A stretch of DNA of 64,000 nt, taken from the NCBI GenBank assembly GCA_965262745.1, contig OZ253558.1, positions 1,623,735 through 1,687,734 on the forward strand, written 5' to 3'. Numbering within the stretch: the first letter of the stretch is position 1; every line of letters starts with the position of its first letter. Shown here in pieces: positions 2,078 through 55,614 of the stretch. Both the position numbers and the translations under genes were made by a program. The DNA comes from Chloroflexota bacterium. Its GTDB lineage: Bacteria; Chloroflexota; UBA11872. A model generated the notes under the pieces. That model was given only the letters and a program-made list of their open reading frames with translations, had not been told where the DNA came from and did no database searches.

Positions 2078-2156
2078 GTCGGCTCCTTCGGCTCAAGCAT
2101 ATGCGAGGTGCCGGGGTTTAGACTTGGCCTGGCAGTACCACGGGCACCCCGGAACA

Positions 2157-7178: not shown

Positions 7179-7187
7179 GAGCGCCGC

Positions 7188-21496: not shown

Positions 21497-21705
21497 TCGT
21501 GATGCGTCTGACGGAGAAGGTGAACCAGCCGCGCCTGGCCCGGCGGGCCGTCGGCCGCGACGGAGAACGGCAGAGCCAGACCCCAGCGTCCTGACCGATC
21601 TGCCGCCGACCGCGGCAAAGTTCCTGATCGGACAGGGAACGTTTCATCTCCGCCGTGCGTATTATCAAGTACCAGACCATGCTCGAAAGCCATTGGGAGT
21701 TCACC

Positions 21706-29469: not shown

Positions 29470-31341
29470 CTATTCCGCCGGAACGCTGTTCTCCTCCGCC
29501 TGCGGCGAGTAGGGGAGATGTCCCGCTGGCAACGGTTCGCGGCGCTCCGCAACAAATCCCATGGCTTGGGCGTCGGCTGCAACCGAGGCAAGGCCAAGGT
29601 ATTCAATGGTGTCGGCAAATGGCCGGCCGGTCGCCGGGTCCCAGCCATGGTCGCGGTAGTAGGCCGTTACCTCGTCCCTGACGCCGGCCCGACTGAGCGG
29701 CTGGTTGCGCAGCGGCCCGTGGCGCAGCGGCTCGTGCAAGCGGTCCGGTAGGCGGTCGTCCTCCGGCTCCAGCCCTTCCCGAAGGTTGAAGAGCCGCGCC
29801 ATGGTGACGCCGCGCTCGAACGTCGCGTGCAACTCGTCCGGCGAAACATCCCAACCCGTGGCCGCGTTCAACAGACTCAGCGTCGTGGCCTCGTCGTACT
29901 GCAAGAAGTGACACAGGCCCACGGTATTGCGGAGCCCGGAACGCTTACCCGCGGCACCGGTGTGGTCGCCGCCGGTTGGAGCGACCGGATAGTTGCGGCG
30001 CATGCCCGGCATCGCGCGCGGATCGTGCATGGCTACTTCGAGCCCCTTCACGTGCACGACCCGCGCCTCGGCGTCGGCGCCGAGGGTGCGCGCCGCCCGC
30101 AGCGAGCCCTCGGCCAGGAGATCGCCCACGCCTTTACGGTGGGCGATCTTTCCGATCACGCGCAGCACGTCGTCGGCCGACCCGATGCGCAGCGTCTCAC
30201 CGTCGAGCTGCTGCTCGCCCAGCAAGCCAAGCTCGACCATTTCCATGGCCCAGGCGATCGTCGCGCCGCACGAAATGCTGTCCATGCCGAGCGCGTTGAG
30301 CATCTCGTGGCCCTTGCAGATGGCCATCACGTCGGTCACGCCCGTGTTGGGACCAATTGACGCCAGCGTCTCGTATTCCGGGCCGCCGTACTTGGGGTCC
30401 ACCGTGAGATCCGGACGCTTGATCTTGACGCGTTTCTTGCAGCGCACGGAGCAGGCGTAGCACCGGTCCATCTCGTGGTCGGTGAGTTCCTGGATGGCCA
30501 CGGCATCCACCCGGTCGGCGCCCTCCAGCCGGCCGTCGCGAAAGTTATGCGTGACCAGGTGACCCTCGAGCTGCTTCGATCTCACCATGGCGCCGGTGCC
30601 CCAGGTGTGGAGCCGATGGTGCGCCTCGCCTGGCGCCAGCGTCTCCTGCGCGACCCAGCGGGAAACTCCGGCAATCGCCCGGGGGTCGGCCGCTTGCACC
30701 GGCTGGGCACCGCGCACGGCAATGGCTTTCAGATTCTTCGATCCCATGACGGCGCCTAGGCCCGTGCGACCGGCCACCTCGTTGAGATCGTGAACGATGC
30801 AGGCAAACCGCACCAGGTTTTCCCCGGCCGGACCGATCTGGGCCACGCGAACGCGCGGGTCGCCCAACTCCTCCCGAATCTGAGATTCCACCGGCCCCGT
30901 TAGCTCGCCCCAGAGCGGCCGCGCGTCGCGCAGCTCGACCGCGTCGTCGTCGATCCAGAGGTACACGGGATGGGCCGCCCTCCCGTGCACGATGATGGCG
31001 TCCCAACCGGCGCGCTTGAGCTCGGCGCCCCAGTAGCCACCAGCCTCGGATTCACCAAAAAGGCCGGTGAGTGGCGACTTGGCGCCCACGCTGTGCCGGC
31101 TGCCGCCGGGAACGGAAACACCCGTAATCGGTCCGAGCGCGAACACGAGGCGGTTCGCTGGATCGAACGCATCGCTGCCCTGCGGGACTTCGGTAAGCAG
31201 CGTGTGGGCAATGACGTTGCGGCCGCCCATGTGCAGCCGCAGGAAGTCCGCGTCGGGCCGAACGGTCGCGATACGACCGGTGGTGAGATCGACGCGCAAG
31301 AAGCGCCGGCGCACCGAGCCCTTGGAGAGTGGCACCTTCAC
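29470..31341 (-). CDS. aor: Aldehyde:ferredoxin oxidoreductase (tungsten AOR family)
   Basis: 623-aa AOR family sequence (LRVDLTTG.., Cys ligands for the 4Fe-4S cluster, tungstopterin-binding regions). Confidence 0.85.
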   Translation of the reverse strand: MKVPLSKGSVRRRFLRVDLTTGRIATVRPDADFLRLHMGGRNVIAHTLLTEVPQGSDAFDPANRLVFALGPITGVSVPGGSRHSVGAKSPLTGLFGESEAGGYWGAELKRAGWDAIIVHGRAAHPVYLWIDDDAVELRDARPLWGELTGPVESQIREELGDPRVRVAQIGPAGENLVRFACIVHDLNEVAGRTGLGAVMGSKNLKAIAVRGAQPVQAADPRAIAGVSRWVAQETLAPGEAHHRLHTWGTGAMVRSKQLEGHLVTHNFRDGRLEGADRVDAVAIQELTDHEMDRCYACSVRCKKRVKIKRPDLTVDPKYGGPEYETLASIGPNTGVTDVMAICKGHEMLNALGMDSISCGATIAWAMEMVELGLLGEQQLDGETLRIGSADDVLRVIGKIAHRKGVGDLLAEGSLRAARTLGADAEARVVHVKGLEVAMHDPRAMPGMRRNYPVAPTGGDHTGAAGKRSGLRNTVGLCHFLQYDEATTLSLLNAATGWDVSPDELHATFERGVTMARLFNLREGLEPEDDRLPDRLHEPLRHGPLRNQPLSRAGVRDEVTAYYRDHGWDPATGRPFADTIEYLGLASVAADAQAMGFVAERREPLPAGHLPYSPQAEENSVPAE

Positions 31342-32732: not shown

Positions 32733-34730
32733 ATGACAACTGACCAGATCGCTCACCATTCCTCCGAGGCGTCGCAACTCTTCGAGCCGCCGCCGGCGTT
32801 CGCCGCGCGCGCGCGCATCGGCTCGATGGAGCAGTACCGCGAGCTCTATCGACGCAGCCTTGACGAGCCGGAAGCTTTTTGGCGCGAGATCACGGACGGC
32901 TTCGAGTGGATGAAGCCGTGGACCACGCTTCTCGAGTGGGAGCCGCCGTTCGCCAAGTGGTTCGTCGACGGCACCACCAACATCAGCGTGAATTGCTTGG
33001 ATCGTCACGTGGCCGCCGGTCGCGGCGATCGCGTCGCGTACTACTGGGAAGGCGAGCCGGGCGATACGCGCGTCATCACCTACGCCGAGCTTCTGCGCGA
33101 CGTGCAGCGATTTGCCAATGCGCTGCGTGGGCTAGGGCTGAAGCGCGGCGAGCGCGTGCTGCTCTACATGCCCATGGTGCCCGAGTTGCCGGTGGCCATG
33201 CTGGCCTGCGCCCGCCTGGGCCTGGTCCACAGCGTTGTGTTCGGCGGGTTCAGCGCCGATGCCATTCGCGACCGCGTGAATGACGCCGGCGCCTCGCTGG
33301 TAATCACCGCCGACGGCGGCTGGCGTCGCGGCCGCGTGATCCCGCTGAAAGCCAATGTTGACGCCGCCCTGGCGGACGGCGCCTGCCCGTCGGTTGGCAA
33401 CGTGATCGTGCTGCGGCGTTGCGCCAACGACATCGCCTGGGTCGACGGACGTGACGTGTGGTGGGACGACGCCATCGCCGGGCAGTCCGACGAATGCCCG
33501 GCGGCAGAGCTTCCCGCCGAGCATCCGCTATACATCCTCTACACCAGCGGCACCACCGGTAAGCCCAAGGGCGTCGTGCACACCACGGCGGGCTACATGG
33601 TCTACACCGCCGCCACCGCCAAGTTGATCTTCGACCTGCGCGACGACGACATCTACTGGTGCACCGCCGACATCGGCTGGGTCACGGGGCACAGCTACAT
33701 CGTCTACGGCATCCTCGGCAACGGCGCCACAAGCGTGATCTACGAAGGCGCGCCCAACGCACCGAAAGAGGATCGCTTCTGGGCCATCGTCGAGAAATAC
33801 GCCGTCACGGTGCTGTATACGGCTCCCACGGCCATTCGGACGTTCGTGCGCTGGGGCGACGAGCACCCCAACGCGCACGATCTCACCAGCCTGCGGCTGC
33901 TCGGGACCGTCGGCGAGCCGATCAACCCCGATGCGTGGTTGTGGTATCACCGCGTCATCGGCGGCGGGCGCTGCCCCATCGTGGATACCTGGTGGCAGAC
34001 GGAGACCGGCGGCATCCTCATCACGCCGCTGCCGGGCGCCATTCCGCAAAAGCCTGGCTCGGCCACACTCCCGTTCCCCGGAACCGAGCCGGAAATCGTC
34101 GACGAGCAGGGGGAATCCCTGCCCGACGGCACTCGCGGCCTCTTGGTGCTGAATCGCCCCTGGCCGGGAATGCTGCGCGGCATCTATAAGGACGGGTGGG
34201 GCATTCCGGGACACCCGGGCGAGCACGGCGACGCCGAGCGTTTCATGGAGCAGTATTGGGCCAAGTTCCCCGGGCGCTATCTGACCGGCGACGGGGCCGT
34301 GCGCGACGCCGACGGCTATTTCTGGATCATTGGGCGGGTCGACGACACGCTCAATGTGTCGGGGCACCGCATTGGCACGGCGGAGGTCGAGAGCGCCCTG
34401 GTCAGCCATCCCGCGGTGGCGGAATCCGCGGTCGTCGGCACACCGGACCCCATCACCGGGGAATCCATCGCCGCCTTCGTCACGCTGCGCGGCGGCATCG
34501 ACACCTCGGATGAGATGCAGGCCGAGTTGGTGGCGCACGTGGGCGAAAAGTTGGGAGGCTTTGCGCGACCCAAGCAACTTCGATTTGCCGACGCCCTGCC
34601 CAAGACCCGCAGCGGCAAGATCATGCGGCGGTTGCTGCGCGATATCGCCGCCGGCCGCGAGGTCGTGGGCGATACCACCACGCTCGAGGATCTCACGGTG
34701 GTGGCTCAGCTACGGGGCGAGGAGGAATAG
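32733..34730 (+). CDS. acs: Acetyl-CoA synthetase
   Basis: AMP-forming Acs family ([20 protein letters not shown], conserved C-terminal Lys); start at MTTDQIAHH inside the longer ORF. Confidence 0.9.
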
Positions 34731-34837
34731 CCGCCCTGCACCGACCCTCGATCCCGCCCACCATTGCCATCGAAGGTAATACCATGGCCGCGCCGTCGCG
34801 ATCTGGGCGGCGCCACTCAGCGGAGCAACGCAGGTCT

Positions 34838-35407
34838 ATGCACGTCACCGGGTCCAGCCGAACCGCGCGCCTCGGGCGCGTCATCTGCGCGTTTCTGAGC
34901 GGTGTTTTCCTCGCCGGCGCCGTCGCGGCTTGCGGCGAATCCAGCCGCTTCAGCCACATCGCGCCAACCCCCGAACCCACCCCGGTCGTCGTCCAGCTGC
35001 TCGCCATGGTCCCCTCTGGACGCACGATGCCTCCGGTGGCGCCGTCACCGCCCGCCCGCACGCCGGAGACGGTAACCACCATGGCGGCGCCAACGCCCAT
35101 CGTCATCGAGACGCCGACCGAAGTCGTGGACGAGACGCCGAGCCCGACGCCGACCGAGCCGCCCACAGGCCCGTTCACACCCGAAGAAATCGGTAGCCAA
35201 CTCTTTGTCGACAACGGCTGCTTCGTCTGCCACGCCGAAGACCTCAGCGGCGGCATCGGCCCGGCCCTTGCGGGGCGCACACCGGAGGACCTGACGGATG
35301 ACCGCATTCGATCGCAGATCGGCACCGGTGGAAACGGGATGCCGTTCTTTGAAAACCTCACGGCGGAGCAAATCGAACAGCTCATGGCGTTCATTCGCAG
35401 TTCCTAG
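34838..35407 (+). CDS. Lipoprotein c-type cytochrome (class I) with Pro/Thr-rich linker
   Basis: Lipobox LAGAVAACGE, PT-rich spacer, single CFVCH haem-binding motif, then GGNGMP. Confidence 0.7.
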   Translation: MHVTGSSRTARLGRVICAFLSGVFLAGAVAACGESSRFSHIAPTPEPTPVVVQLLAMVPSGRTMPPVAPSPPARTPETVTTMAAPTPIVIETPTEVVDETPSPTPTEPPTGPFTPEEIGSQLFVDNGCFVCHAEDLSGGIGPALAGRTPEDLTDDRIRSQIGTGGNGMPFFENLTAEQIEQLMAFIRSS

Positions 35408-35476
35408 GCAGCCATGACAATCCGCGGCTGTACGCCGGACGTAGAATTTGAGGGAAGGCGGGTAAGGAGCGCTGGC

Positions 35477-36139
35477 ATGCGGAGGATGATCGCTGCGTGC
35501 ATCGCCGTCGCCGCGGCTGCGGTCGTCCTGACCGCGTGCGGCGAAGCCGCCGAGCCCGCAGCACCCGCCGCCGAGGTGAAATACGCGGCAATCGAAGCGC
35601 CCGCGCCGCCCACGGCAACGGATACCCCCGCCCCTCCGCCCGCGCCAACGCCGCAACTGACTCCTACGCCGGTTCCACAGCCGGCTGCCCCGGCAAGGGC
35701 GGCCGCCGTCGACTTCTCGCTCCCGAGCGCCCAGGGCCCGCAATACACCCTGAGCTCCTTCGCGGGACAGCGGCCGGTGGTCGTCGTCTTCTACCGCGCC
35801 TTCTGGTGAGGGACCTGCCGTACCCAGCTCGTGGAGCTGCAAAACGACTACCAGGACTTCCAATCGCGCGGCGTCGAAATCCTCGCCATCAGCACTGACA
35901 CGCTCAATGACACCGCCGGCATTGTTGAGCGGATCGGCCTGCAATTCCCGGTGCTCTACAACTCCGAGGGCGATGTCCCGCGCGCGTACGGCATCTTCGA
36001 TCTCTACGGCGACGGTCTCGCCACGGGGTCGGCGTTCCTGGTCGATCTTGATGGAAACCTGGCCTGGAGTTCGATCTACAGCGGCATTCACGACCTCATC
36101 AAGTCAGACGACATCCTGGCGGCCATCGACGCGCTGTAG
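35477..36139 (+). CDS. Candidate selenoprotein: lipoprotein thioredoxin-fold (TlpA/ResA-like) thiol-disulfide oxidoreductase with an in-frame TGA at 35807-35809
   Basis: Two track ORFs (35414-35809 and 35831-36139) share one frame and are separated only by a TGA that sits at the first-Cys position of the redox motif (FYRAFW-U-GTC); SD AAGGAG precedes the ATG at 35477. Confidence 0.5.
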
Positions 36140-36141
36140 AG

Positions 36142-36495
36142 CAACGGCGCCGCACGCACCCCGGAGAGCGTGACCACCATGGCGCCGCCGCCACGGTTGG
36201 GGCGGCGGCAACCCCGACCCCGAATGGCACGCCGCCCCCCACTCCAACGCCGAAGGTCCAGACCGACGAAGAGCCGCCCTGCCGGCAACTCTTCGTCGAC
36301 AACGGCTGCACGGTCTGCCACGGTGAAGACCTGAGCGGCGGAATCGGATCACCGCTTGCCGGCCGAGCCCCGGACGATCTCACGGAGGAGCGCATCCGCT
36401 CCCAACTCGCCGAGGGTGGAAACGGGATGCCGCCGTTTCCCGATCTGACGGAGGTTCAGATCGGTGAACTGATCGCGTGCATTCGCAGTTCGTAG
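36142..36495 (+). pseudogene. Degenerate duplicate of the cytochrome c gene 3' portion (CTVCH retained, no start)
   Basis: Frame-1 translation ..QLFVDNGCTVCHGEDLSGG..GGNGMPPFPDL..IACIRSS* parallels the end of the gene at 34838-35407; an indel breaks the upstream frame and there is no initiation codon. Confidence 0.4.
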
Positions 36496-36564
36496 GCCGC
36501 GATGGCAAACCGCGCCGGCTCGCTCAGCGTAGAATCTGAGGGAAGACGGGTGAGGAGTTTCGGC

Positions 36565-37635
36565 ATGCGGAGGATGATCGCCGCGTTAATCGCCATCGCC
36601 GCGGCTTCTGTAGTCATTGCGGCGTGCGGCGAATCCGCCGAGCCCGCGGAATCCGCCGCTGGAGCTGCCGTCGCCAGCGAGGCAACCGCGGCCCCCGCGC
36701 CGCCGACGGCAACGGTCACGCCCGCCCCTCCGCCCGCACCGGTGCCGACAGCCACCAGCCCACCGACGCCAGCCGCAACCCCGCCGCCGACCGCCACGGC
36801 GGTCGCGGGAGCGGCCCTGGCGGCCACTTCCGCACCGACTGCGGTAGTCGTCGCCGCGGCGCCGACGCCCACAGCCGCTCCCGCGCCGACCTCAACGCCG
36901 GCGCCCGCAGTAACGCCCACGCCGGCGCCCCTCCCGACCTCAACGCCGCAGCCCACGCCGACGACGGCCGCTGTGCCAACTCCAACTCCCGCACCAACGC
37001 CCGCACCGGCGCCCACGCCAACACCGCAGCCCACACCCGCGCCCACGGCAGCGCCGACGCCGACCCCCGCACCCCAGCCAACGCCGCAGCCGACACCCAC
37101 GCCCGCGCCAGAGCCCACGCCAACGCCGCAACCGACGCCGACGCCCGCGCCACAACCGACCCCAACGCCAACACCGCCACCCGCGCCAGCCAGGGCGGCC
37201 GCCGTCGACTTCTCGTTACCGAGTGCCCAAGGCCCGCAATACACCCTGAGTTCGTTTGCGGGACAGCAGCCGGTGGTGGTGGTCTTCTACCGGGCCTTCT
37301 GGTGAACGACCTGTCGCACGCAGCTCGTGGAGCTGCAGAACAACTACCAGGAGTTCGAATCGCGCGGCGTGGAAATCCTCGCCATAAGCACTGACACGCT
37401 CAATGACACCGCCGGCATTGTTGAGCGGATCGGCCTCCAATTCCCGGTGCTCTACAACACCGAGGGCGATGTTCCCCGGGCGTACGGCATCTTCAACCTC
37501 TACGGCGACGGTCTCGCCACAGGGTCAGCGTTCTTGGTCGATCGTGACGGGGGCCTGGCCTGGAGTTCTGTCTACAGCGGCATTCATGACCTGATCCCCT
37601 CAGCCGACATCCTGGCAGCCATCGACGCCCTCTAG
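36565..37635 (+). CDS. Candidate selenoprotein paralog: lipoprotein thiol-disulfide oxidoreductase with an expanded PT-rich linker and an in-frame TGA at 37303-37305
   Basis: Track ORFs 36502-37305 and 37327-37635 are in frame across the TGA (FYRAFW-U-TTC); SD GAGGAG precedes the ATG at 36565. Confidence 0.5.
36700..37190 (+). repeat. Coding low-complexity Pro/Thr/Ala-rich repeat region (linker)
   Basis: Reiterated [15 protein letters not shown] codon repeats inside the gene at 36565-37635. Confidence 0.7.
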
Positions 37636-37729
37636 GACACAAGCGCAGCCCGACGCGCGGTGCCTGTCCGCGACGCACGGCGGGTCACGCGCCTACAATC
37701 GCGCCCGCCCATACTGACGAAGAAAACCT

Positions 37730-38794
37730 ATGAGCAAACCGCTGCGGGCCGGCGTGGTCGGCCTCACCGGCATCGGCGCCAAACGGTCGGCCCCAGGCCC
37801 AGGCCCTGGCACCGGCGTTGAGATGCCTCACTCCCACGTCGGCGCCTACCTCCACGTCGCCGCCACCGAGCCCGTCGCGGTGTGCGACATCGTGCCCGAG
37901 AAGCTGGATGGCTTTCACCGCGACTGGGCCGACGTGTTGCCCGACACGCGCGGCTACACCGACTACCGCGAGATGTTGGCCCGCGAGCAACTGGACGTCA
38001 TCAGCGTCGCGACCCCCGACGACCGCCACGCACAGATAGTTGTCGACGCGGTGGCCGCCGGGGTGCGCGGCATCATCTGCGAGAAGCCCATTGCCTCGAC
38101 GCTGGCCGACGCCGACCGCATGATCGCCACCGTCGAAGCCGCGGGAGTCCCCATGCTGGTGGACCACACGCGGCGCTGGATGTTTCCCTGGGTGCAGGTG
38201 GCCGAGGTGATCGCCTCGGGGGAGATCGGCGAGGTGCAGCGCATTGCCGCCCAGCAGGGCGGTCCGCGCGCGATGCTGTTCCGCAACGGCACCCACATGT
38301 TCGACACCATCCTCTGGTTCGCCGGCGGCAGGCCCACCGCGGTCTACGCGCTCGCTGAAGCCGGCTTCGCCGACTACGGCCCTCGCTACGCCAGCGACGG
38401 CGGCCACGACCCCGACACCGATCCCGCCATGTCCGCCATCATCGAGTTCGACAACGGCGTTCGCGCATTCTGGAACATGTGCAAGACCATGCCGCAGGTA
38501 TTCGATGTCGCCGTATTCGGCACCTCCGGTATCGTGCGCGTCGGCGACTCGGACGACGCCACCGTCACCGTCAAGGACAGCGGCGGCTTGAAACAGCGCT
38601 CGCTTCCCCGGCCGCAATACACGCTCGGCCACATCGCCGGCTGCGTCGACGAGATGGTGCATCTGATCAACCACGGCGGCCGCCCCTCAATGGACGGTCG
38701 CACCTCGCGCCAGGTCGTCGAAGTGCTCCTGGCCGCGCTGCAGTCGCAACACGCCGGCAACGCCCGCATCACCCTCCCCATCAGCGACGCCTAG
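37730..38794 (+). CDS. Gfo/Idh/MocA family oxidoreductase
   Basis: N-terminal Rossmann fold (RAGVVGLTGIG), EKP motif, C-terminal alpha/beta domain. Confidence 0.85.
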   Translation: MSKPLRAGVVGLTGIGAKRSAPGPGPGTGVEMPHSHVGAYLHVAATEPVAVCDIVPEKLDGFHRDWADVLPDTRGYTDYREMLAREQLDVISVATPDDRHAQIVVDAVAAGVRGIICEKPIASTLADADRMIATVEAAGVPMLVDHTRRWMFPWVQVAEVIASGEIGEVQRIAAQQGGPRAMLFRNGTHMFDTILWFAGGRPTAVYALAEAGFADYGPRYASDGGHDPDTDPAMSAIIEFDNGVRAFWNMCKTMPQVFDVAVFGTSGIVRVGDSDDATVTVKDSGGLKQRSLPRPQYTLGHIAGCVDEMVHLINHGGRPSMDGRTSRQVVEVLLAALQSQHAGNARITLPISDA

Positions 38795-38837
38795 CCGGCG
38801 GCGGCTAGGGATAGTCCGAATAAGTCGATGGACGCCG

Positions 38838-38887
38838 CCCCAATCCGTTCGCCCTGAGCTTGTCGAAGGGACTACCGAACGGATTGG
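38838..38887. terminator. Long inverted repeat between convergent genes (possible bidirectional terminator)
   Basis: CCCAATCCGTTCG ...24 nt... CGAACGGATTGGG, 13-bp arms. Confidence 0.3.
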
Positions 38888-38929
38888 GACACATCGAGGC
38901 CAGGGCCTCCTTGTTTGTTCAGAGGTTCC

Positions 38930-39925
38930 CTAGAGCGACTTGATATAGGCCACGATCGCCAGCAGCTCTTCCCGCGAGAGCAGCGTATCGAGGTCGGCCT
39001 GCATCAGGCCCGGCTCGAATCCCGCCACGACTTCCGTGTTGGGATCGACGATCGCCCGCAGCAGATAGGCGTCGTCGGCGATCACCGTTGAGCCATCCGA
39101 CAGCGTTACCTGGCTGACGTAGAGGCCCTGCCAGGTGGGGCCGATGCCCTCAGACCCGTCGCTGCTGTGACAGGCCTCACAGCCGACGGCACGAACCAGC
39201 ACGGCCCCCAGGCCAGGATCGGGCGCCGCCGGCGTGGGAGTCGGTGTTGGCTGTGGCGTGGGCGTCGGCTGTGGCGTCGGCGTGGGCACTGGCACCGGCG
39301 TCGGTGTGGGAGTCGGTTCCGGCGTGGGCGTCGGCATGGGGGTCGGGGTGGGTTCGGGCGTGGGTGTGGGCTCTGGTGTCGCTGTCGGCGTCGGGGTCGG
39401 CTCCGGCGTTGGTGACGGAGTCGGGGCAGGCGTAGGTGTCGGCGTGGCCGTAGCTGTCGGCGTCGGTTCCGGCGTCGGCGTGGCTTCCGGTGTGGCTGTG
39501 GATTCGAGCGTGGGCGTCGGCGTGGGGTCCGAGGTGGGCGACGGCGCGGGCGTGGGTTCAACCGTGGGTGTCGGCTCCGGCGATGGTGTGGGCGCTGGGG
39601 TCAGCGTGGGCTTTGGCGTCGCCGGTGGCTCCGGCGTTGAGGCCGATGTGGGCTCCGGCGTGGACGTGGACTCTGACGTCGGCGCGGGCGCGAGCGTCGG
39701 TGTAGGCGCCAGCATCGCCGCAGTCGCCGGTGTTGACGCAGGCGTGGGCGCCAGGGTGGGAGATGGCGCCACCGTCGTACCCGCTGCTGGCGGCGCCGAG
39801 GCTTCCCCGCACGCCAGGCACAGAAGGCCTATCGCGACAATGAGGCCCGCTATCCGGAAGCTGCCTACCGAACCATGCGATTCGCGCGTAGGCGCGCGCC
39901 GACGACCGCTTTCGTGTCTACGCAC
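38930..39925 (-). CDS. Lipoprotein c-type cytochrome with a long Pro/Thr-rich linker
   Basis: GTG start, lipobox LLCLACGE, about 180 aa of PTPEPTPT repeats, CEACH haem motif and a class I cyt c C-terminal domain. Confidence 0.7.
39230..39790 (-). repeat. Coding low-complexity Pro/Thr-rich repeat region (cytochrome c linker)
   Basis: Reiterated GGTGTGGGCGTCGGC-type units on the plus strand, equivalent to PTPEPTPTP codon repeats. Confidence 0.7.
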
Positions 39926-40202
39926 GCGTCAGCTAACGCAACCCGCGAATCACCCGCATTCAGGGTGCCATGGCTGGGCAAAGGCGGGCGTGTCCCGCCA
40001 TCTCGTCGCGCGTCGCATATGCACGAGAGTATCGCGCGTGGACCACTTGTCACGCGTACGCAGGCTGCCGCGCGTGCAGCGGAACACCGGAAATCCCGCG
40101 ACCGCTCAGAAGTCGCGTCCGTCAAACACCGAGCGACCGGTTCGCCTGCGGCGTTTCCCATGAGCCGTCGGGCACGAACCTCACGGTAGTGTTCTCGGAG
40201 GA

Positions 40203-41225
40203 TTGGTACATTCTGCCGTCGCCGTGCTTGGGTCACCATGGCGGGAACCAGAAGGCACCGTGATCGTGCTGGAACAGTTTTCGGCGAGGCATTGGGTCAG
40301 CGTCGCACGCCGCATCCCAACGCACGCCGCACGGCTCATAGGCGCGCTGGTCTCCTACGGGGCATCGGCGCTGCTGCTCGCAGCCACGTTGCTCCTGGCG
40401 ATCATCCCCGCCAGAGTCGCCGATGCCGTCGCCGCCTGGCTGGGGCGCCGCGTATACGCGTGGGGCGGGCGTCGAACGCGCCAGCTGCGCGCCAACCTGT
40501 CCGTGGTCATGGGCGCGTCCGCCACGGCGCAGGAGGTGAACGCAGCGGCCGCTGATGTGTACGCCAGCTACGGCCGCTATCTGGCGGAGTACTTCACGAT
40601 GATTTGGCCCGATTGGTGGCGCCGCCAGCGCCGCGTCGAGATTGATTCGTCAGAGCTGGCGGCGGCACTTGGGGCCGGCCGGGGCGCCATCATCGTGAGC
40701 ATGCATGCCGCCAACTTCGAGATCGCCGCCCGCGAGCTGCGGCGGCGGCACGCGCCGATATCCTCCGCCGGCGAACGGATGCGCCCCCACTGGCTGGGCC
40801 GCGTCATCGCGATGATCCGGCGGCAGGCGCGGATCGCGGTGCACGACGAACGCCATGCCGCCCGCCCGTTGCTGCGCGCGCTACGCCGCAACGAAGCAGT
40901 CGGACTGGCAGCCGATCGGGTCATCTTCGGCGACGGCGTGCCCGTGCAGCTGTGCGGCGAGACCGCGCTGCTCCCAAAGGGACCCGCCATGCTCGCCATC
41001 ATGAGTGGCGCTCCGCTCATGCCCGCGTTCACCCGGCGCTTGCCCGACGGCCGCGTCGAAGGCGTCTTCGGACGCGGCATCGACCTGAGCGACCTCGACC
41101 GCTCAGATGCCGGCCTGCAGGAGGGCGTGCAACGCATGGCGGATGCGCTCACGGAAATGATCGGCTTCGGCTACCGCAGCTGGTACGCCCTGCACCCGGT
41201 ATGGCAAGCGGCGAAGGTGCCCTAG
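40203..41225 (+). CDS. Lysophospholipid acyltransferase (LPLAT/HtrB-like) family protein
   Basis: Lipid A biosynthesis acyltransferase-like sequence with an N-terminal TM helix; start uncertain. Confidence 0.55.
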   Translation: MVHSAVAVLGSPWREPEGTVIVLEQFSARHWVSVARRIPTHAARLIGALVSYGASALLLAATLLLAIIPARVADAVAAWLGRRVYAWGGRRTRQLRANLSVVMGASATAQEVNAAAADVYASYGRYLAEYFTMIWPDWWRRQRRVEIDSSELAAALGAGRGAIIVSMHAANFEIAARELRRRHAPISSAGERMRPHWLGRVIAMIRRQARIAVHDERHAARPLLRALRRNEAVGLAADRVIFGDGVPVQLCGETALLPKGPAMLAIMSGAPLMPAFTRRLPDGRVEGVFGRGIDLSDLDRSDAGLQEGVQRMADALTEMIGFGYRSWYALHPVWQAAKVP

Positions 41226-44737: not shown

Positions 44738-45643
44738 ATGAACCGCACACACTCCTGCGAACCCACGATGACCGATGAGGACGTGGTGTGGTTCTGCCGC
44801 AACGGCTACTGGATTCTCGAAGCCGTCGTGCCAGACGAGATCAACCGGCGAGCGCTGGACTACCTGGCGTCGAACACGCACTTGGAACCCACCGAGATCA
44901 TGGCGGAGGACTGGTTCGTCGACGGCGTAATTCTCAACCCCGCGGCCGCCGGGGCGGTGCGCTCGCTGCTGGGAGACGACTTCGCCTTGCCGACGCTGAT
45001 GGCAAATCATCGCGGCACGGGCCCGGCCAAGCCGCAGGATTGGCACCGGGACAGCGGCTCACGCCATGGCCCGGAGCTCAACTACCTACAGGTCTTCTAC
45101 TACCCCCAAGACGTGCCGCGGGAGATGGGTCCCACCGAGCTGCTGCCGGGCTCGCACTTCCTCTATCAGCGCGAAAAGCTGATGGCGCACTACGGCGCGA
45201 TCAAGGGCGGCGTGCTCACCACCGGGCCGGCCGGTTCCGTTTTCATCACGTCATACAACATCTGGCACCGCCGAGCGGCCCGCACGGCGACAGCGGCGGC
45301 CGGTGTGCGCAACTTGCTGAAATACAACTACTGGCGCACCGCCGACCCGCGGCGGGACTGGATCGTGAGCCCGGAGTTTGACGTCGCGTCGGCGGATTTC
45401 GTTGTGGACGGGGTGCGGTTCTCCGAGGCGGTCCGCGACTGCGTCGACGCGGCCGAGATGTATTACTGGCTCAGCGGCAAGATCGACGAGTTTCACTATC
45501 TGGGCGGCCAGTCGTGGCCCGCGGACATCCTGCAAACCAAGCCCGCGCCCGGTACCCACGAAGGCGCCAGATACCGCCGGCGCTACGGCGTCCCAGGCGA
45601 CGTTACCGATCGACGGAGTCGGCAATCCGGGCGGCTCCGGTGA
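44738..45643 (+). CDS. Phytanoyl-CoA dioxygenase (PhyH) family Fe(II)/2OG oxygenase, paralog 1
   Basis: PhyH-type double-stranded beta-helix; HxD...H facial triad region (WHRD, NIWHRR). Confidence 0.75.
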   Translation: MNRTHSCEPTMTDEDVVWFCRNGYWILEAVVPDEINRRALDYLASNTHLEPTEIMAEDWFVDGVILNPAAAGAVRSLLGDDFALPTLMANHRGTGPAKPQDWHRDSGSRHGPELNYLQVFYYPQDVPREMGPTELLPGSHFLYQREKLMAHYGAIKGGVLTTGPAGSVFITSYNIWHRRAARTATAAAGVRNLLKYNYWRTADPRRDWIVSPEFDVASADFVVDGVRFSEAVRDCVDAAEMYYWLSGKIDEFHYLGGQSWPADILQTKPAPGTHEGARYRRRYGVPGDVTDRRSRQSGRLR

Positions 45644-45736: not shown

Positions 45737-46105
45737 ATGAAGGACCCGCGGCAGATGGTGCGGCAGTGCATCGACGAGCTGCGCGAAGGGCGCCTGACCG
45801 AGGAGCGGCTGCACGAACTGGAGGACGCCCTCGGCGCGGAGCGACCGCGGCGCTGGGACCTGCTGTACCTCCAGGCGGCCAAGTCGTCGGAAGCCTCGGA
45901 CGTCGTCGGGATGCGCCTGATCCGCAACGGCGAGGTGGTGTATCCGCTGCCGGCGCCCGAGGACTGGCCCTATAAGACCGTGCTGGACGCCATCAACGAC
46001 GGCTGGCGGGTGGTGAAGTTCCCCGAGCTGGCGCTGCTGATGGACGAGGGCCGCACCTACGGGCTCTCCTGCGAGTTCATCCTGGAACGGAGGGCCGCCG
46101 CATGA
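45737..46105 (+). CDS. Hypothetical small protein between the PhyH paralogs
   Basis: SD GGAGG precedes the ATG at 45737; stop overlaps the next start (ATGA); no recognisable domain. Confidence 0.4.
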   Translation: MKDPRQMVRQCIDELREGRLTEERLHELEDALGAERPRRWDLLYLQAAKSSEASDVVGMRLIRNGEVVYPLPAPEDWPYKTVLDAINDGWRVVKFPELALLMDEGRTYGLSCEFILERRAAA

Positions 46106-47016
46106 CCATGACCAAGCGCACCTACTCCAGCGCGCCGACCATGACGGATGACGACGTGATCTGGTTCTGCCGCAATGGGTACTGGATTCTGGAAGGCGTG
46201 GTGCCCGACGAGATCAACCGGCGAGCCATGGACTATCTGGACGCACATCCGATCTCGGAGCCTTCGGGAATCCTGGAAGAGGATTGGTTCATCGAGAACG
46301 TGATCGTCAACCCCGCAGCGGCTGGAGCGGTGCGCTCGCTCCTCGGCGACAACTTCACGCTCCCCGTACTGATGTCGAATCACCGGGGCACCGGCCCGCG
46401 GCATCCGCAGGACTGGCACCGGGACGGCGGCTCGCGTTACGGCCCCGAGGTGAACTACCTCCAGGTCTTCTACTACCCACAAGACGTACCGCCCGAGATG
46501 GGCCCGACCGAGCTATTGCCGGGCTCGCACTTTCTCTACCAGCGGGAAAAGCACATGGCGCACTACGACGCGGTCAAAGGGAGCGTGCTGACCGCCGCGC
46601 CGGCAGGCTCGATCTTCCTCACCTCCTACAACATCTGGCACCGGCGCGGCGCGCGCACGGCGCCTGAGTCCGCCGGCATTCGAAACCTGCTGAAATACAA
46701 CTACTGGCGCACGGAAGATCCCCAGCGGGATTGGATCCAAGAGCCGGACTTCGACATCGAGTTTGCCGACTTCGTGGTGGACAGCCTGCGCCATTCGGAG
46801 TTGATGCGCGATTGCGTCGATGCGGCCGAAATGTATTTCTGGCTCTGCGGCAAGTCCGACGAGTTCCGCTACCTGGGCGGGCAGGGTTGGCCGGGCGATA
46901 TCCCCGAGAACAAGGCCACGCCCGAGGCGATCGCCCGCACGCGCTACCGCCACCGCTACGGGGTACCCGGGGACATGACGGACCGCGGCGGACGGCGCGC
47001 GGCACGCATCTGGTGA
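46102..47016 (+). CDS. PhyH-family dioxygenase, paralog 2
   Basis: About 70% aa identity to paralog 1 over its full length. Confidence 0.75.
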   Translation: MTMTKRTYSSAPTMTDDDVIWFCRNGYWILEGVVPDEINRRAMDYLDAHPISEPSGILEEDWFIENVIVNPAAAGAVRSLLGDNFTLPVLMSNHRGTGPRHPQDWHRDGGSRYGPEVNYLQVFYYPQDVPPEMGPTELLPGSHFLYQREKHMAHYDAVKGSVLTAAPAGSIFLTSYNIWHRRGARTAPESAGIRNLLKYNYWRTEDPQRDWIQEPDFDIEFADFVVDSLRHSELMRDCVDAAEMYFWLCGKSDEFRYLGGQGWPGDIPENKATPEAIARTRYRHRYGVPGDMTDRGGRRAARIW

Positions 47017-47017
47017 C

Positions 47018-47869
47018 ATGATCTGGGACATCGAGCGGCACGCGGCCGAGATCGAGCGCGATGGCTACACCATCATGGAGCGCGTGCTGCCACAAGCTGA
47101 GATTGACGCTACGCGCGCCGCCATCGAGGAGACGCTGGCCGCCGAGGAGACCATCGGGCGCAAGTACGGCCTGCAGAGCGCCAACCTTCGGATGGTATTC
47201 AACGCCCAGGCCAAGCACCGCCACTTCCACGGCCTGCCGCTGCGGTACCCGGCGCCCGTGGAAGTGGCGCAGCGGGTGCTCGGCGACGACATGTTTGCCC
47301 ACGACGTCACCATCCGGGTGCCCATGCCGACCGGCGAGAAAGACCACCGCCGATTCGGCGGCAACCTGCACGCTGACTGGAGCGATTTCACCGTCAAACC
47401 GTTCCTCGGCGGCCGGCACTACGCGATGGGCATCCAGGCGGCCTGGGCCCTCACGGAGTTCTCAACGGAAACCGGCGGGCCGGTGGTCTGGCCCGGGTCG
47501 CACCTCGCCGTCGAGATTCCACCCGAGGAGCCGGAGACGCTTCCGCCCGGGTGGAAGATCGCCGAAGCGCCGGCGGGATCGGTGCTGCTTTGGGACGCCG
47601 GTTTGTGGCACACCGGCGGCACCAACCACGGCAACCAGCCGCGCTACTCGCTGATCCTCTTCTTCCAGCGCTGGTGGGTGAAGGGCTTCAACGACTCCTA
47701 TCGCTACATGCCTCCCGACATGCGCGAGAAGATGTCGCTGGCCGAACGCCAGTTCTGGGGACTGGAAGCCGGGGTCCCGCCCAACACCCACTTCCGCGGC
47801 ATGAGCCGCGAGCAGATCGAGGCGCTGACGCCGGCCGAGAAGGCCGTGCTCAACATCGCGGCGTACTAG
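47018..47869 (+). CDS. PhyH-family dioxygenase, divergent paralog 3
   Basis: PhyH-like sequence (LHADWSD.., GSVLLWDAGLWHTGG); start abuts the preceding stop. Confidence 0.7.
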   Translation: MIWDIERHAAEIERDGYTIMERVLPQAEIDATRAAIEETLAAEETIGRKYGLQSANLRMVFNAQAKHRHFHGLPLRYPAPVEVAQRVLGDDMFAHDVTIRVPMPTGEKDHRRFGGNLHADWSDFTVKPFLGGRHYAMGIQAAWALTEFSTETGGPVVWPGSHLAVEIPPEEPETLPPGWKIAEAPAGSVLLWDAGLWHTGGTNHGNQPRYSLILFFQRWWVKGFNDSYRYMPPDMREKMSLAERQFWGLEAGVPPNTHFRGMSREQIEALTPAEKAVLNIAAY

Positions 47870-55578: not shown

Positions 55579-55614
55579 ATCATCTGATGACCTAATGATC
55601 GCATGATGGCATAG

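What the first reader, a model, noticed from the sequence alone, without database searches (positions are those of the whole stretch)
34838..37635. Duplicated [cytochrome c]-[redoxin] module with one cytochrome copy decayed to a start-less remnant
The unit cytochrome c (CFVCH) plus lipoprotein redoxin occurs twice in tandem.

The second cytochrome copy (36142-36495) keeps CTVCH, GGNGMP and the ..IRSS* end but has lost its start codon and signal peptide and has an indel upstream. The second redoxin has a greatly expanded PT-rich linker.

Together with a third PT-linker lipoprotein cytochrome at 38930-39925, this points to an extracytoplasmic electron-transfer and redox-maintenance cluster typical of monoderm cells, and to ongoing duplication and decay at this locus.
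Basis: seen in the sequence. Interest (0 to 1): 0.5.

Follow-up and report, generated by a model that had tools for sequence, protein, structure and literature searches.

The report
Tandem selenocysteine redoxin lipoproteins, dead cytochrome

Summary
35063-36139 and 36161-37635 are tandem homologous copies: 89% nt identity in the redoxin domain and 75% in the haem domain. The second cytochrome (36142-36495) has no canonical start upstream of CTVCH. It lacks about 256 nt of 5' sequence, including the signal peptide, and carries a 2-nt frameshift.

Each redoxin ORF is interrupted by an in-frame TGA (35807-35809 and 37303-37305) inside FYRAFW-U-xx-C.
- The Pfam AhpC/TSA domain spans the TGA.
- All 19 copies in nine Chloroflexota genomes keep the TGA, as do 16 marine and soil metagenome homologues at 30-49% identity.
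- More distant homologues carry Cys there.
- A hairpin starting 15 nt downstream is conserved, with one G-C/A-U covarying pair.
- TGA is an ordinary stop elsewhere in the window.

So these are two lipid-anchored, extracytoplasmic 'Prx-like' UxxC selenoproteins, a family described in 2005.

Comparison across genomes shows a dynamic array with three redoxin paralogue types. The second cytochrome is intact in two species and progressively eroded in seven.

Function is inferred, not shown. It is most likely a thiol/selenol-disulfide oxidoreductase on the outer membrane face; a link to cytochrome c is local to this clade. The selenocysteine machinery could not be located. Verdict: a new member of a known kind, of moderate interest.

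The parts
34838..35407 (+). Cytochrome c1: a 189-aa lipoprotein class-I c-type cytochrome. It has a signal peptide with lipobox VAAC|G, a P/T-rich linker, haem motif CFVCH at 35219-35233 and a GGNGMP Met ligand.
   Evidence: Pfam Cytochrome_CBB3 at 1.4e-10 and Cytochrom_C at 4.7e-8. NCBIfam gives only sub-threshold hits to Bacillus-type c550/c551. An orthologue sits at the same position in all nine genomes.
35477..36139 (+). Redoxin 1, a 220-aa Prx-like UxxC selenoprotein lipoprotein of the 'G type' (W-U-G-T-C). Start is ATG 35477, with AAGGAG 8-13 nt upstream. Lipobox LTAC|G (Cys codon 35537-35539), a 53-aa linker, then an AhpC/TSA domain.
   Evidence: Pfam AhpC-TSA at 3e-27 covers residues 76-197 and so spans the TGA at residue 111. 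Public gene callers split the gene into an N-terminal piece and a 102-aa C-terminal piece. Orthologues occur in all nine genomes.
35807..35809 (+). In-frame TGA, the predicted selenocysteine codon U111 of redoxin 1.
   Evidence: It aligns with Cys in L025, L028 and L030 and with the Thr of the TxxC motif in PrxQ-like and AhpE proteins.
35824..35840 (+). Candidate bacterial SECIS hairpin of redoxin 1: c-CAGCUC-GUG-GAGCUG-c. The stem starts 15 nt after the UGA.
   Evidence: The stem is invariant at synonymous sites while flanking wobble positions vary. At pair 24-34 there are 17 G-C and 12 A-U and no broken pairs. 89.7% of cells are paired, against 18-54% in slid controls. Model R1 finds only the two redoxin sites in the window.
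36142..36495 (+). Cytochrome c2 remnant, a pseudogene fragment. Homology starts at about 36161. CTVCH is at 36307-36321 and GGNGMP is intact. There is no start codon, signal peptide or lipobox, and a 2-nt insertion near 36190 shifts the frame.
   Evidence: Pfam Cytochrome_CBB3 at 1.3e-9. It is the orthologue of the intact second cytochrome of L005 and L006, judged by its linker TPTPNGTPPPTPTP and by CHGED and RSQLAEGG.
36565..37635 (+). Redoxin 2, a 356-aa Prx-like UxxC selenoprotein lipoprotein of the 'TT type' (W-U-T-T-C). Lipobox IAAC|G and a 189-aa P/T/A-rich linker (about 36631-37197).
   Evidence: Pfam AhpC-TSA at 1.5e-28.
37303..37305 (+). In-frame TGA, the predicted selenocysteine codon U247 of redoxin 2.
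37320..37336 (+). Candidate SECIS hairpin of redoxin 2: G-CAGCUC-GUG-GAGCUG-C, a 7-bp stem.
38930..39925 (-). Third lipoprotein cytochrome c, 331 aa, with a long PT linker and a CEACH motif. It is conserved in all nine genomes and is not part of the duplication.
   Evidence: Pfam Cytochrom_C at 1.6e-4. Synteny is shown.

Best explanation
The locus holds two paralogous genes for membrane-tethered, extracytoplasmic thioredoxin-fold selenoproteins. Each has a lipoprotein signal peptide, a P/T-rich linker and an AhpC/TSA 'Prx-like' domain with a W-U-x-x-C redox centre.

**Recoding (inferred).** The UGA codons at 35807 and 37303 are read as selenocysteine. A small hairpin that starts 15 nt downstream, CAGCUC-GUG-GAGCUG, would recruit SelB and Sec-tRNA.

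**Gene order.** Each redoxin gene follows a gene for a small lipoprotein class-I cytochrome c. The first cytochrome is intact. The second is a dead fragment: about 256 nt of 5' sequence is deleted and a 2-nt frameshift follows.

**History.** The array is old and unstable. Nine related Chloroflexota species carry three redoxin paralogue types (U-G-T-C, U-T-T-C and U-T-A-C) in different combinations. The second cytochrome is intact in two species and eroded to different degrees in seven.

**Likely function (inferred).** The UxxC centre cycles between a selenol/thiol state and a selenenylsulfide. On the outer face of the membrane it would act as a thiol-disulfide oxidoreductase, reducing disulfides or oxidised thiols in exported proteins. 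In this clade the obvious local client is the CxxCH motif of the neighbouring apocytochromes, as with ResA.

**Shown:** gene structure, TGA conservation, hairpin conservation and fold family. **Inferred:** Sec insertion, localisation and enzymatic role.
For: **Conservation of the TGA**
- The TGA is in frame in both window copies.
- It is present in all 19 copies in nine genomes.
- It is present in 16 further homologues at 30-49% identity: L010-L024 from marine metagenomes and L029 from another metagenome.
- Every close homologue in a 5.8-billion-protein database is called as an N-terminal piece or a 102-aa C-terminal piece. No close homologue is full length.

**Translation through the TGA**
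- The Pfam AhpC/TSA alignment spans the TGA.
- The seven codons between the TGA and the gene callers' GTG start encode the conserved xxCRTQL. Several of their differences between copies are synonymous: TGC/TGT, CGT/CGC, ACC/ACG.
- dN/dS is 0.04-0.08 upstream of the TGA and 0.17-0.28 downstream.

**Sec/Cys pairing**
- More distant homologues have Cys at the same position: L025 and L028 with H-C-P-I-C, and L030 with C-P-V-C.

**TGA is not generally reassigned**
- TGA ends 16 of 44 predicted genes in the window.

**Hairpin**
- Its position is fixed.
- One pair covaries: 17 G-C, 12 A-U, none broken. This includes a double change in L006_r1, which is synonymous on both sides.
- 89.7% of cells are paired, against 18-54% when the 3' partners are slid.

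**Family**
- A 'Prx-like' selenoprotein family with UXXC in place of the Prx TXXU motif is described in PMC1088965 and PMC13188914.

**Machinery**
- All nine Chloroflexi bins from one sponge metagenome encode SelA, SelB and SelD (PMC5649159 Table S4).

**Pseudogene**
-, with the cross-genome erosion series.
Against: - No selA, selB, selD or tRNA-Sec gene lies in the 64-kb window or in any fetched locus. The rest of the genome could not be searched.
- The hairpin is short, with a 6-7 bp stem and a 3-nt loop, and only one pair covaries. Folding energy of the 67-nt context is no better than that of shuffled sequence (z about 0). Because the stem lies in coding sequence for QLVEL, part of its conservation is due to the protein.
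- No NCBIfam model reaches its cut-off: ResA scores 52 bits against a cut-off of 170, and SelL-related scores 48 against 120. Assignment to a named subfamily therefore rests on motif and fold only.
- Nothing here tests the enzymatic role.
- The link to cytochrome c is absent from the marine homologues.
- No cytochrome c maturation gene (ccdA, resB or resC) was seen among the window genes scanned.
Confidence: 0.75

Rival explanations
1. The selenoproteins are peroxidases rather than disulfide reductases. The selenol reduces H2O2 or organic peroxides at the cell surface. The neighbouring Cys resolves the selenenic acid to a selenenylsulfide. The centre is then re-reduced by a thiol donor or, unconventionally, through the adjacent cytochrome c.
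For: - The best Pfam family is AhpC/TSA, with E 3e-27 and 1.5e-28.
- The nearest solved structures are the M. tuberculosis 1-Cys peroxiredoxin AhpE chains, at about 40 bits.
- The nearest full-length database homologues are PrxQ-like proteins.
- Sec is a strong peroxide nucleophile (general knowledge of GPx).
- The conserved Cys of UxxC aligns with the peroxidatic Cys of peroxiredoxins.
Against: - The Prx active-site signature PxxxTxxC...R is broken. Pro is replaced by Arg, Thr by Sec, and the AhpE catalytic Arg116 aligns with Gly.
- ResA, a disulfide reductase, scores the same as AhpE in the PDB search, and it is the top NCBIfam hit.
- The published family description calls the motif thioredoxin-like (PMC1088965).
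Confidence: 0.2
2. The TGAs are true stop codons. The redoxin genes are then either nonsense-inactivated pseudogenes or pairs of separate small genes: an N-terminal lipoprotein stub and a leaderless 102-aa protein.
For: - Automatic gene callers annotate the locus this way in every public assembly.
- No Sec machinery was found in the sequence held.
Against: - The same TGA is kept in 35 sequences down to 30% identity, and both flanks are under purifying selection in the same frame.
- A single Pfam domain spans the TGA.
- The conserved Cys of the motif lies between the TGA and the called GTG start, so it would never be translated.
- The C-terminal piece would have no signal peptide and only half of a fold.
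Confidence: 0.03
3. The second cytochrome copy is still expressed, for example by frameshifting or reinitiation from the GTG 36170 / ATG 36179 frame. In that case it is not a pseudogene.
For: - The haem domain is an intact 118-codon open frame with CTVCH and GGNGMP.
- Its dN/dS against functional orthologues is 0.10-0.15, and it has only about five private amino-acid changes in 69 codons.
Against: - There is no canonical start upstream of the haem motif.
- There is no signal peptide or lipobox, so it cannot be exported for haem attachment.
- The same fragment is further deleted in L001, L002, L003, L004, L007 and L008, which shows it is dispensable.
- The low dN/dS is also explained by recent inactivation.
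Confidence: 0.04
4. The redoxins are copper or metal chaperones of the Sco/SenC type that serve cytochrome oxidase assembly, rather than redox enzymes.
For: - There is a weak Pfam SCO1-SenC hit for redoxin 2, E 0.0067 at 16.8 bits against a cut-off of 22.8.
- One public source names an N-terminal fragment as a 'cytochrome oxidase Cu insertion factor' (P0035).
- Cytochrome genes are adjacent.
Against: - The hit is below threshold.
- The motif is UxxC, not the CxxxC of Sco proteins (general knowledge of the family, not tested here).
- No cox genes are nearby.
Confidence: 0.03

Closest known systems
'Prx-like protein' / 'Prx-like thiol:disulfide oxidoreductase' selenoprotein family (Zhang, Fomenko and Gladyshev 2005, PMC1088965; Zhang et al. 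2006, PMC1794560; 2026 review PMC13188914)
   Same: It has the AhpC/TSA (PF00578) fold. It is distantly homologous to peroxiredoxins but carries a thioredoxin-like UxxC motif where Sec-peroxiredoxins have TxxU. It is abundant in marine metagenomes, and Cys homologues exist.
   Different: The proteins here are lipoproteins with long P/T linkers. They occur as tandem paralogue arrays in Chloroflexota, and in this clade they alternate with cytochrome c genes. I could not fetch the reference sequence WP_010940744.1 to measure identity. No NCBIfam model reaches its cut-off.
Bacillus subtilis ResA (also TlpA and CcmG): extracytoplasmic thiol-disulfide oxidoreductases of cytochrome c maturation
   Same: It is a membrane-tethered extracytoplasmic thioredoxin-fold protein with a W-C-x-x-C motif that aligns with W-U-x-x-C. 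ResA is the top NCBIfam hit (52.5 bits). The genes here sit next to c-type cytochrome genes, and the host phylum is generally regarded as monoderm (my knowledge, not tested).
   Different: The score is far below the ResA family cut-off of 170. Sec replaces Cys. The tether is a lipoprotein anchor rather than a transmembrane helix (the ResA anchor type is from my knowledge, not tested). The region that holds the ResA cis-Pro aligns poorly. No resB, resC or ccdA gene is nearby. The marine family members have no cytochrome neighbour.
Mycobacterium tuberculosis AhpE and PrxQ/BCP-type peroxiredoxins
   Same: They are the best PDB matches by sequence (about 40 bits; 4xih, 1xxu). The conserved Cys aligns with the peroxidatic Cys, and the overall AhpC/TSA domain is shared.
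   Different: The catalytic Pro, Thr and Arg are replaced by Arg, Sec and Gly. Those enzymes are cytoplasmic, whereas these proteins are predicted to be exported.
NCBIfam NF041057, 'Rcas_1661 family thioredoxin-like (seleno)lipoprotein', and NF040769, 'SelL-related redox protein'
   Same: By its name, NF041057 describes a thioredoxin-like lipoprotein that can carry Sec, an architecture like the one here. It is named after a locus of Roseiflexus, a Chloroflexota genus (my knowledge). NF040769 covers Prx-like redox proteins related to SelL, a UxxU selenoprotein of aquatic organisms (my knowledge of SelL).
   Different: Scores are 28.5 bits against a cut-off of 190, and 48 bits against 120. The window proteins are not members of either family.
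Bacillus-type lipoprotein or membrane-anchored small cytochromes c550 and c551 (CccA and CccB)
   Same: They are small class-I cytochrome c domains with CxxCH and a Met ligand, tethered to the membrane of a monoderm cell. They are the top NCBIfam hits for cytochrome c1.
   Different: The hits are sub-threshold, at 32 and 28 bits against cut-offs of 125 and 118. The cytochrome here has a long P/T linker, and its role in respiration is untested.

Membership tests
Bacterial selenoprotein gene (UGA recoded to Sec) | An in-frame UGA is conserved among orthologues, and both flanks are under purifying selection in one frame. | tested here: met
   19 of 19 copies in nine genomes keep the TGA, as do 16 metagenome homologues. 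dN/dS is 0.04-0.28 on the two sides. The Pfam domain spans the TGA.
Bacterial selenoprotein gene (UGA recoded to Sec) | Homologues carry Cys at the position of the UGA (a Sec/Cys pair). | tested here: met
   L025 and L028 have H-C-P-I-C and L030 has C-P-V-C at the aligned position.
Bacterial selenoprotein gene (UGA recoded to Sec) | A SECIS stem-loop lies shortly downstream of the UGA, with G at the start of the apical loop (criteria as I recall them from Zhang and Gladyshev's bSECIS model, not re-read here). | tested here: met
   A 6-7 bp stem starts 15 nt after the UGA, and the loop G-N-N begins 21 nt after it. The position is fixed in 34 sequences. One pair covaries between G-C and A-U and is never broken. 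The support is modest: the stem is short, it lies in coding sequence, and the fold z-score is about 0.
Bacterial selenoprotein gene (UGA recoded to Sec) | The genome encodes selA, selB, selC (tRNA-Sec) and selD. | not testable with these tools
   None is present in the window or in the fetched loci. A SelA query returned only Enterobacteria. Indirect support: all nine sponge Chloroflexi bins in PMC5649159 Table S4 have SelA, SelB and SelD.
Prx-like UxxC selenoprotein family (PMC1088965) | An AhpC/TSA (peroxiredoxin-like) fold, with UxxC where peroxiredoxins have TxxC or TxxU. | tested here: met
   Pfam PF00578 at 3e-27 and 1.5e-28. U aligns with the Thr, and C with the peroxidatic Cys, of PrxQ-like proteins and AhpE.
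Prx-like UxxC selenoprotein family (PMC1088965) | Sequence-level clustering with the published family members, for example WP_010940744.1. | not tested
   The reference sequence could not be retrieved with the tools available.
Canonical peroxiredoxin | The active-site residues Pro, Thr, the peroxidatic Cys (PxxxTxxC) and a distal Arg. | tested here: not met
   FYRAFWUGTC compares with FYPGDNTAVC and FFPLAFTGIC. Pro is replaced by Arg, Thr by Sec, and AhpE Arg116 aligns with Gly. Only the Cys is kept.
ResA/TlpA/CcmG cytochrome-maturation thiol-disulfide oxidoreductases | The family HMM score is above its cut-off. | tested here: not met
   NCBIfam ResA subfamily scores 52.5 bits against a cut-off of 170. 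TlpA scores 28 bits against 230.
ResA/TlpA/CcmG cytochrome-maturation thiol-disulfide oxidoreductases | A W-C-x-x-C motif on an exported or tethered thioredoxin fold. | tested here: met
   W-U-G-T-C and W-U-T-T-C align with ResA W-C-E-P-C. The lipoprotein signal peptides were read from the sequence.
ResA/TlpA/CcmG cytochrome-maturation thiol-disulfide oxidoreductases | Genomic association with cytochrome c biogenesis genes (resB/resC, ccsBA or ccdA). | tested here: not met
   None was found among the 45 window genes scanned with Pfam. Only the cytochrome c structural genes are adjacent.
Class I c-type cytochrome (cytochrome c1, and the domain of the remnant) | A CxxCH haem-binding motif, a distal Met ligand and a match to the cytochrome c HMM. 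| tested here: met
   CFVCH and CTVCH with GGNGMP. Pfam PF13442 at 1.4e-10 and 1.3e-9, both above the cut-off.
Functional gene (applied to the remnant 36142-36495) | A start codon and an export signal upstream of the haem domain, in the same frame. | tested here: not met
   The only canonical start in the frame is ATG 36427, downstream of CTVCH. The signal peptide region is deleted and there is a 2-nt frameshift.

The most novel reading that the evidence does not exclude
The cytochrome c and the Sec-redoxin form a functional pair. A lipid-tethered c-type cytochrome would exchange electrons directly with a tethered UxxC selenoprotein on the outer membrane face of a Chloroflexota symbiont. This would link the respiratory chain to extracellular disulfide/selenenylsulfide or peroxide chemistry. 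One form would be a cytochrome c-driven surface selenoperoxidase. Another would be a DsbA/DsbB-like oxidative folding route that ends in a cytochrome. The repeated duplication of the two genes together would then reflect co-adapted partners.
Probability: 0.1. Interest if true: 0.8.

Novelty: new member of a known kind. Interest (0 to 1): 0.45.

Why it matters
**Annotation.** In every public assembly examined, these genes are called as two unrelated small ORFs, a 'hypothetical' N-terminal stub and a 102-aa piece. As a result a whole clade of exported selenoproteins in sponge-associated and marine Chloroflexota is missing from annotation-based surveys. The same split calls recur in dozens of long-read assemblies.

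**Biology.**
- The locus adds membrane-tethered lipoprotein forms, present in tandem copies, to the Prx-like UxxC selenoprotein family.
- It fits an earlier report that selenocysteine machinery is enriched in sponge symbionts (PMC5649159).
- It suggests that selenium-based redox chemistry operates on the cell surface of these bacteria.

**Evolution.** The cross-genome series of the second cytochrome runs from intact, to 5'-truncated, to tiny remnants. It is a clean small example of stepwise gene decay within a tandem array.

Tried and rejected
1. **Locating the Sec machinery.** ARAGORN on the window and on 22 loci found no tRNA-Sec. Pfam scans of 45 window genes found no SelA, SelB or SelD. 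It was uninformative.
2. **Looking up the contig.** The look-up of encoding contigs for P0001 found nothing on record. The listing of cluster members gave no names for the window's own cluster.
3. **Structure prediction of the redoxin domain.** The U-to-C sequence is not an exact window sequence, and the raw translation contains a stop. No fold search was therefore possible.
4. **Rfam.** No family matches the hairpin at gathering threshold or at E up to 10.
5. **Single-sequence folding.** The 67-nt contexts fold no better than shuffles, so support for the hairpin rests on comparative data only.
6. **Other selenoprotein candidates in the window.** Same-frame ORF pairs joined by TGA turned out to be ordinary adjacent genes: moaC/gyrA and an RraA-like gene next to a TIM-barrel gene. 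That filter also missed the redoxins themselves, because the PT linker has atypical codon-position GC. It is therefore not exhaustive.
7. **Consensus promoter scan.** It found nothing in 34600-40300.
8. **A nearly identical full-length version of the remnant.** Three hits were returned at 76-79% identity, and none was a near-identical full-length copy.
9. **A single simple history for the array.** I considered one deletion with vertical descent and could not make it fit. The two species with an intact second cytochrome, L005 and L006, are not sister taxa, yet seven genomes share the same post-stop junction. Either repeated loss from a three-module ancestor or recombination between lineages is needed, and I could not decide between them.
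10. **Tracing the MAG names to a paper.** RHO3_bin, COS3_bin and their accession prefixes gave no hits. The sponge origin of those particular MAGs is therefore my recollection, not a result.

Full report
**1. The observation**

ORF listing and the raw sequence show two successive units on the + strand.

- Unit 1 is a 189-aa cytochrome c (34838-35407, CFVCH at 35219-35233) followed by a redoxin (35477-36139).
- Unit 2 is a cytochrome-like open frame (36142-36495, CTVCH at 36307-36321) followed by a second redoxin (36565-37635).

A MAFFT alignment and segment-wise alignments confirm nucleotide-level homology:

| Segment | nt identity |
|---|---|
| Redoxin domain | 89.0%, no gaps |
| Signal-peptide region | 84.5% |
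| Spacer | about 76% |
| Haem domain | 74.8%, no gaps |

Homology of unit 2 begins at about 36161, which matches 35063 inside the linker of cytochrome 1.

The frame that holds CTVCH is open from 36052 to 36495. Its only ATG/GTG/TTG is ATG 36427, downstream of the haem motif. Aligned with cytochrome 1 and with intact orthologues from other genomes, the copy lacks about 256 nt. The missing part is the leader, signal peptide, lipobox and first part of the linker. The copy also has a 2-nt insertion that shifts the frame.

The linker is 53 aa in redoxin 1 and 189 aa in redoxin 2. The longer one is made of imperfect P/T/A codon repeats. The third cytochrome (38930-39925, minus strand) is real.

**2.

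Neither redoxin is a single open frame. Each is interrupted by TGA (35807-35809 and 37303-37305) within VVVVFYRAFW-TGA-(G/T)TCRTQLVELQ. The evidence that this codon is translated falls into six groups.

- *Domain continuity.* With Cys placed at the TGA, Pfam AhpC/TSA matches residues 76-197 of redoxin 1 (E 3e-27). The match runs straight through position 111. Redoxin 2 gives E 1.5e-28.
- *Split calls in public data.* Among 5.8 billion proteins, every close homologue is either a fragment of about 82-202 aa (most about 105-135 aa) ending in ...FYRAFW or a 102-aa fragment starting at the GTG of ..LVELQ... The nearest full-length proteins are 36-38% identical PrxQ-like enzymes.
- *Conservation in related genomes.* A scan of one genome per species found eight syntenic Chloroflexota MAGs, L001-L008. 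All 19 redoxin copies in the nine genomes keep the TGA.
- *Conservation in distant homologues.* A metagenome scan found 15 marine homologues (L010-L024) at 44-49% identity. All have FYR(A/G)(F/Y)W-TGA-xxC. A homologue at about 30% identity (L029) has W-TGA-PFC. Still more distant homologues carry Cys at that position: H-C-P-I-C in L025 and L028, and C-P-V-C in L030.
- *Coding signal on both sides.* The seven codons between the TGA and the callers' GTG encode the conserved xxCRTQL. Several of their differences between copies are synonymous (TGC/TGT, CGT/CGC, ACC/ACG). dN/dS is 0.04-0.08 upstream of the TGA and 0.17-0.28 downstream.
- *No general reassignment.* TGA is an ordinary stop in 16 of 44 predicted genes of the window, for example moaC directly before gyrA.

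Together these are the standard comparative criteria for a selenocysteine codon.

**3. The recoding signal**

The sequence CAGCTC-GTG-GAGCTG begins 15 nt after each TGA. Across the 19 copies it is invariant even at wobble positions, while the neighbouring wobble positions vary. L006_r1 has the double change CAACTC...GAGTTG, which is synonymous on both sides.

The marine homologues are otherwise A/T-rich. They keep a hairpin at exactly the same place, as CAACUC-G(G/U)(G/U)-(G/A)AGUUG or CAGCUC-GUC-GAGCUG.

On the 34-sequence alignment A3, the named 7-pair helix has 89.7% of cells paired, against 18-54% when the 3' partners are slid by 1-3 columns. Pair 24-34 is G-C in 17 distinct rows and A-U in 12, and it is never broken.

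The geometry fits the published bacterial SECIS model as I recall it: the loop starts 21 nt after the UGA and has G in first position. I did not re-read those criteria here.

There are four caveats. The stem is short and only one pair covaries. It lies in coding sequence. Single-sequence folding of the context is not better than shuffles. Rfam has no matching family. A covariance model built from A3 finds only the two redoxin sites in the window.

**4. What kind of protein it is**

Both products start with a lipoprotein-type signal: MRRMIAACIAVAAAAVVLTAC|GE in redoxin 1 and ...VVIAAC|GE in redoxin 2. A P/T/A-rich linker and the AhpC/TSA domain follow. The marine homologues are built the same way.

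In alignments with PrxQ-like proteins and with M. tuberculosis AhpE, U aligns with the Thr of the peroxiredoxin PxxxTxxC motif. The following Cys aligns with the peroxidatic Cys. The Pro is replaced by Arg, and the catalytic Arg116 of AhpE aligns with Gly. With B. subtilis ResA, W-U-G-T-C aligns with W-C-E-P-C.

AhpE and ResA score alike in the PDB search, at about 40 bits. In NCBIfam the best hits are all far below their cut-offs:

| NCBIfam model | Bits | Cut-off |
|---|---|---|
| ResA subfamily | 52.5 | 170 |
| SelL-related redox protein | 48 | 120 |
| PrxU | 39.7 | 270 |
| ResA-like WAxxUGC | 34 | 300 |
| Rcas_1661 (seleno)lipoprotein | 28.5 | 190 |

This matches the published 'Prx-like protein' selenoprotein family. 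That family is described as distantly related to peroxiredoxins but carrying a thioredoxin-like UXXC motif in place of TXXU, with 22 sequences in the Sargasso Sea data (PMC1088965). The 2026 review lists it as 'Prx-like thiol:disulfide oxidoreductase, PF00578, UxxC/UxxU' (PMC13188914). The proteins here fail the peroxiredoxin active-site test and the ResA HMM cut-off. I therefore file them under the Prx-like UxxC family, by motif and fold only.

**5. Selenocysteine machinery**

None is present in the window or in the fetched loci. My attempt to tie SelA to these genomes failed.

There is indirect support from Slaby et al. 2017. They report SelA and SelB as enriched in sponge symbionts. In their Table S4, all nine Chloroflexi bins have SelA, SelB and SelD. 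The nine bins are five SAR202, two Caldilineae and two classified only to the phylum. One SAR202 bin, at 3.7 Mb and 65.6% GC, resembles this genome, whose window is 66.6% GC on a 3.28-Mb contig. This feature remains untested for the organism itself.

**6. The array in nine genomes**

Synteny is conserved. The gene order is acetyl-CoA synthetase, cytochrome c1, Sec-redoxin, [second cytochrome or remnant], Sec-redoxin, GFO/IDH/MocA oxidoreductase, third cytochrome on the reverse strand, then an acyltransferase.

The redoxins fall into three paralogue clades, and each roughly tracks the acs+gfo tree:

- U-G-T-C with a short linker, present in all nine genomes as the first copy.
- U-T-T-C, present in the window, L001, L002 and L003.
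- U-T-A-C, present in L003 to L008.

L003 has all three types.

The second cytochrome is full length, with start, signal peptide and lipobox, only in L005 and L006. In the other genomes it is reduced as follows:

| Genome | State of the second cytochrome |
|---|---|
| Window | 118 codons, no start |
| L001 | about 45 codons; haem motif gone; GGNGMP changed to GERGIGMP |
| L003, L007, L008 | a few C-terminal residues |
| L002, L004 | almost nothing |

The window fragment is the orthologue of the L005/L006 gene. Its linker TPTPNGTPPPTPTP matches their TPTPIGTPTPTPTP, and CHGED and RSQLAEGG are shared.

Its dN/dS against functional cytochromes is 0.10-0.15. It has only about five private amino-acid changes in 69 codons. 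It was therefore under selection for most of its history, and its inactivation is recent relative to the age of the paralogue.

Seven genomes share the same junction directly after the first redoxin's stop, (S/R)(N/S)GAARTPE. L005 and L006 are not sister taxa. The pattern therefore requires either repeated losses from a larger ancestral array or recombination between lineages. I could not decide between these.

**7. Function**

The following are shown: the exported-lipoprotein architecture, the thioredoxin-fold UxxC centre, and loss of the peroxiredoxin catalytic residues.

The following is inferred: a thiol/selenol-disulfide oxidoreductase on the outer face of the membrane.

In this clade each redoxin gene was born next to a cytochrome c gene. 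That makes ResA-like reduction of apocytochrome CxxCH the obvious local hypothesis. Three points weigh against it:

- The marine homologues have no cytochrome within 3 kb. They are instead followed by a second lipoprotein AhpC/TSA paralogue that has neither Cys nor Sec at the motif.
- The second redoxin persists wherever its cytochrome has decayed.
- No cytochrome maturation genes are nearby.

I therefore give the general reductase role about 0.55, a peroxidase role about 0.2, and a dedicated cytochrome c partnership about 0.1-0.25.

**8. Verdict**

The duplication and the dead cytochrome copy are real but ordinary. The valuable result is the re-annotation of four called ORFs as two tandem selenoprotein genes. 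They belong to a family known since 2005, here in a lipoprotein-tethered, tandemly amplified form in Chloroflexota.

This is a new member of a known kind, of moderate interest (0.45).

Noticed in passing
window 35440-35476 and 36528-36564; the same position in L001-L008: Every one of the 19 redoxin copies has a conserved TAG(A/G)AT hexamer about 25-37 nt upstream of its start codon, in otherwise GC-rich DNA. In most copies a conserved GGCAA(A/T)CCG-like element lies about 20 nt further upstream. Cytochrome c1 has a conserved cgTAATAC about 60 nt upstream. This suggests each gene has its own promoter, although the consensus scan found none.
   Followed up: partly
L007 about 6950-7150 and L008 about 7000-7200 (linker of the second redoxin): In two species the P/T linker of the second Sec-redoxin has gained an Excalibur calcium-binding domain (ALDLYDDDGNGRISC...DRDGDGVVCE; Pfam PF05901, E 1.6e-10).
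   Followed up: yes
L011 3338-3979, L019 3305-4051, L021 3305-4072, L024 3272-3985; also L017, L020 and L026: In marine homologues the Sec-redoxin lipoprotein is followed directly by a second lipoprotein AhpC/TSA paralogue (24-27% identity) with no Cys or Sec at the active-site motif (..VLFIPGADGELD..). It looks like a redox-dead partner. The context is tyrS, a predicted aminotransferase, the Sec-redoxin, this paralogue, a conserved unannotated ORF on the reverse strand, then ligA (neighbour identities read by eye, not scanned).
   Followed up: partly
window 3453-3529 and 3670-4659: An IS-type DDE transposase (DDE_Tnp_1 plus DUF772) sits immediately downstream of the only tRNA gene in the window, tRNA-Val(CAC).
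   Followed up: no
window 19754-21493 and 21655-23478: This is another tandem duplication: two adjacent paralogous large proteins, each with a DUF4349 domain and DUF11 repeats. They are probably cell-surface proteins.
   Followed up: no
window 44738-45640, 46102-47013 and 47018-47866: Three PhyH-family (phytanoyl-CoA dioxygenase-like) paralogues lie in a row. They are followed by genes for an RraA-like aldolase, a xylose-isomerase-like TIM barrel and a zinc-type dehydrogenase, which together look like a catabolic cluster.
   Followed up: no
window 29473-31341 (-), 1947-3440 (+) and 16671-17183 (+): An aldehyde:ferredoxin oxidoreductase (AFOR_N and AFOR_C domains, a family that typically uses a tungsten or molybdenum pterin cofactor) lies in the same window as the molybdopterin genes moeA and moaC. 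The moaC stop TGA directly abuts the GTG start of gyrA.
   Followed up: no
L001 6328-6560: In L001 the cytochrome remnant has lost its own stop codon (TAG changed to GAG). It now reads in frame, without a stop, from just after the first redoxin's TAG through into the signal peptide of the second redoxin. This is probably accidental.
   Followed up: no
window 4663-5964 and 54426-56574: These two stretches, of 1.3 kb and 2.1 kb, have no ORF with the codon-position GC pattern typical of the rest of the window. I did not examine them.
   Followed up: no
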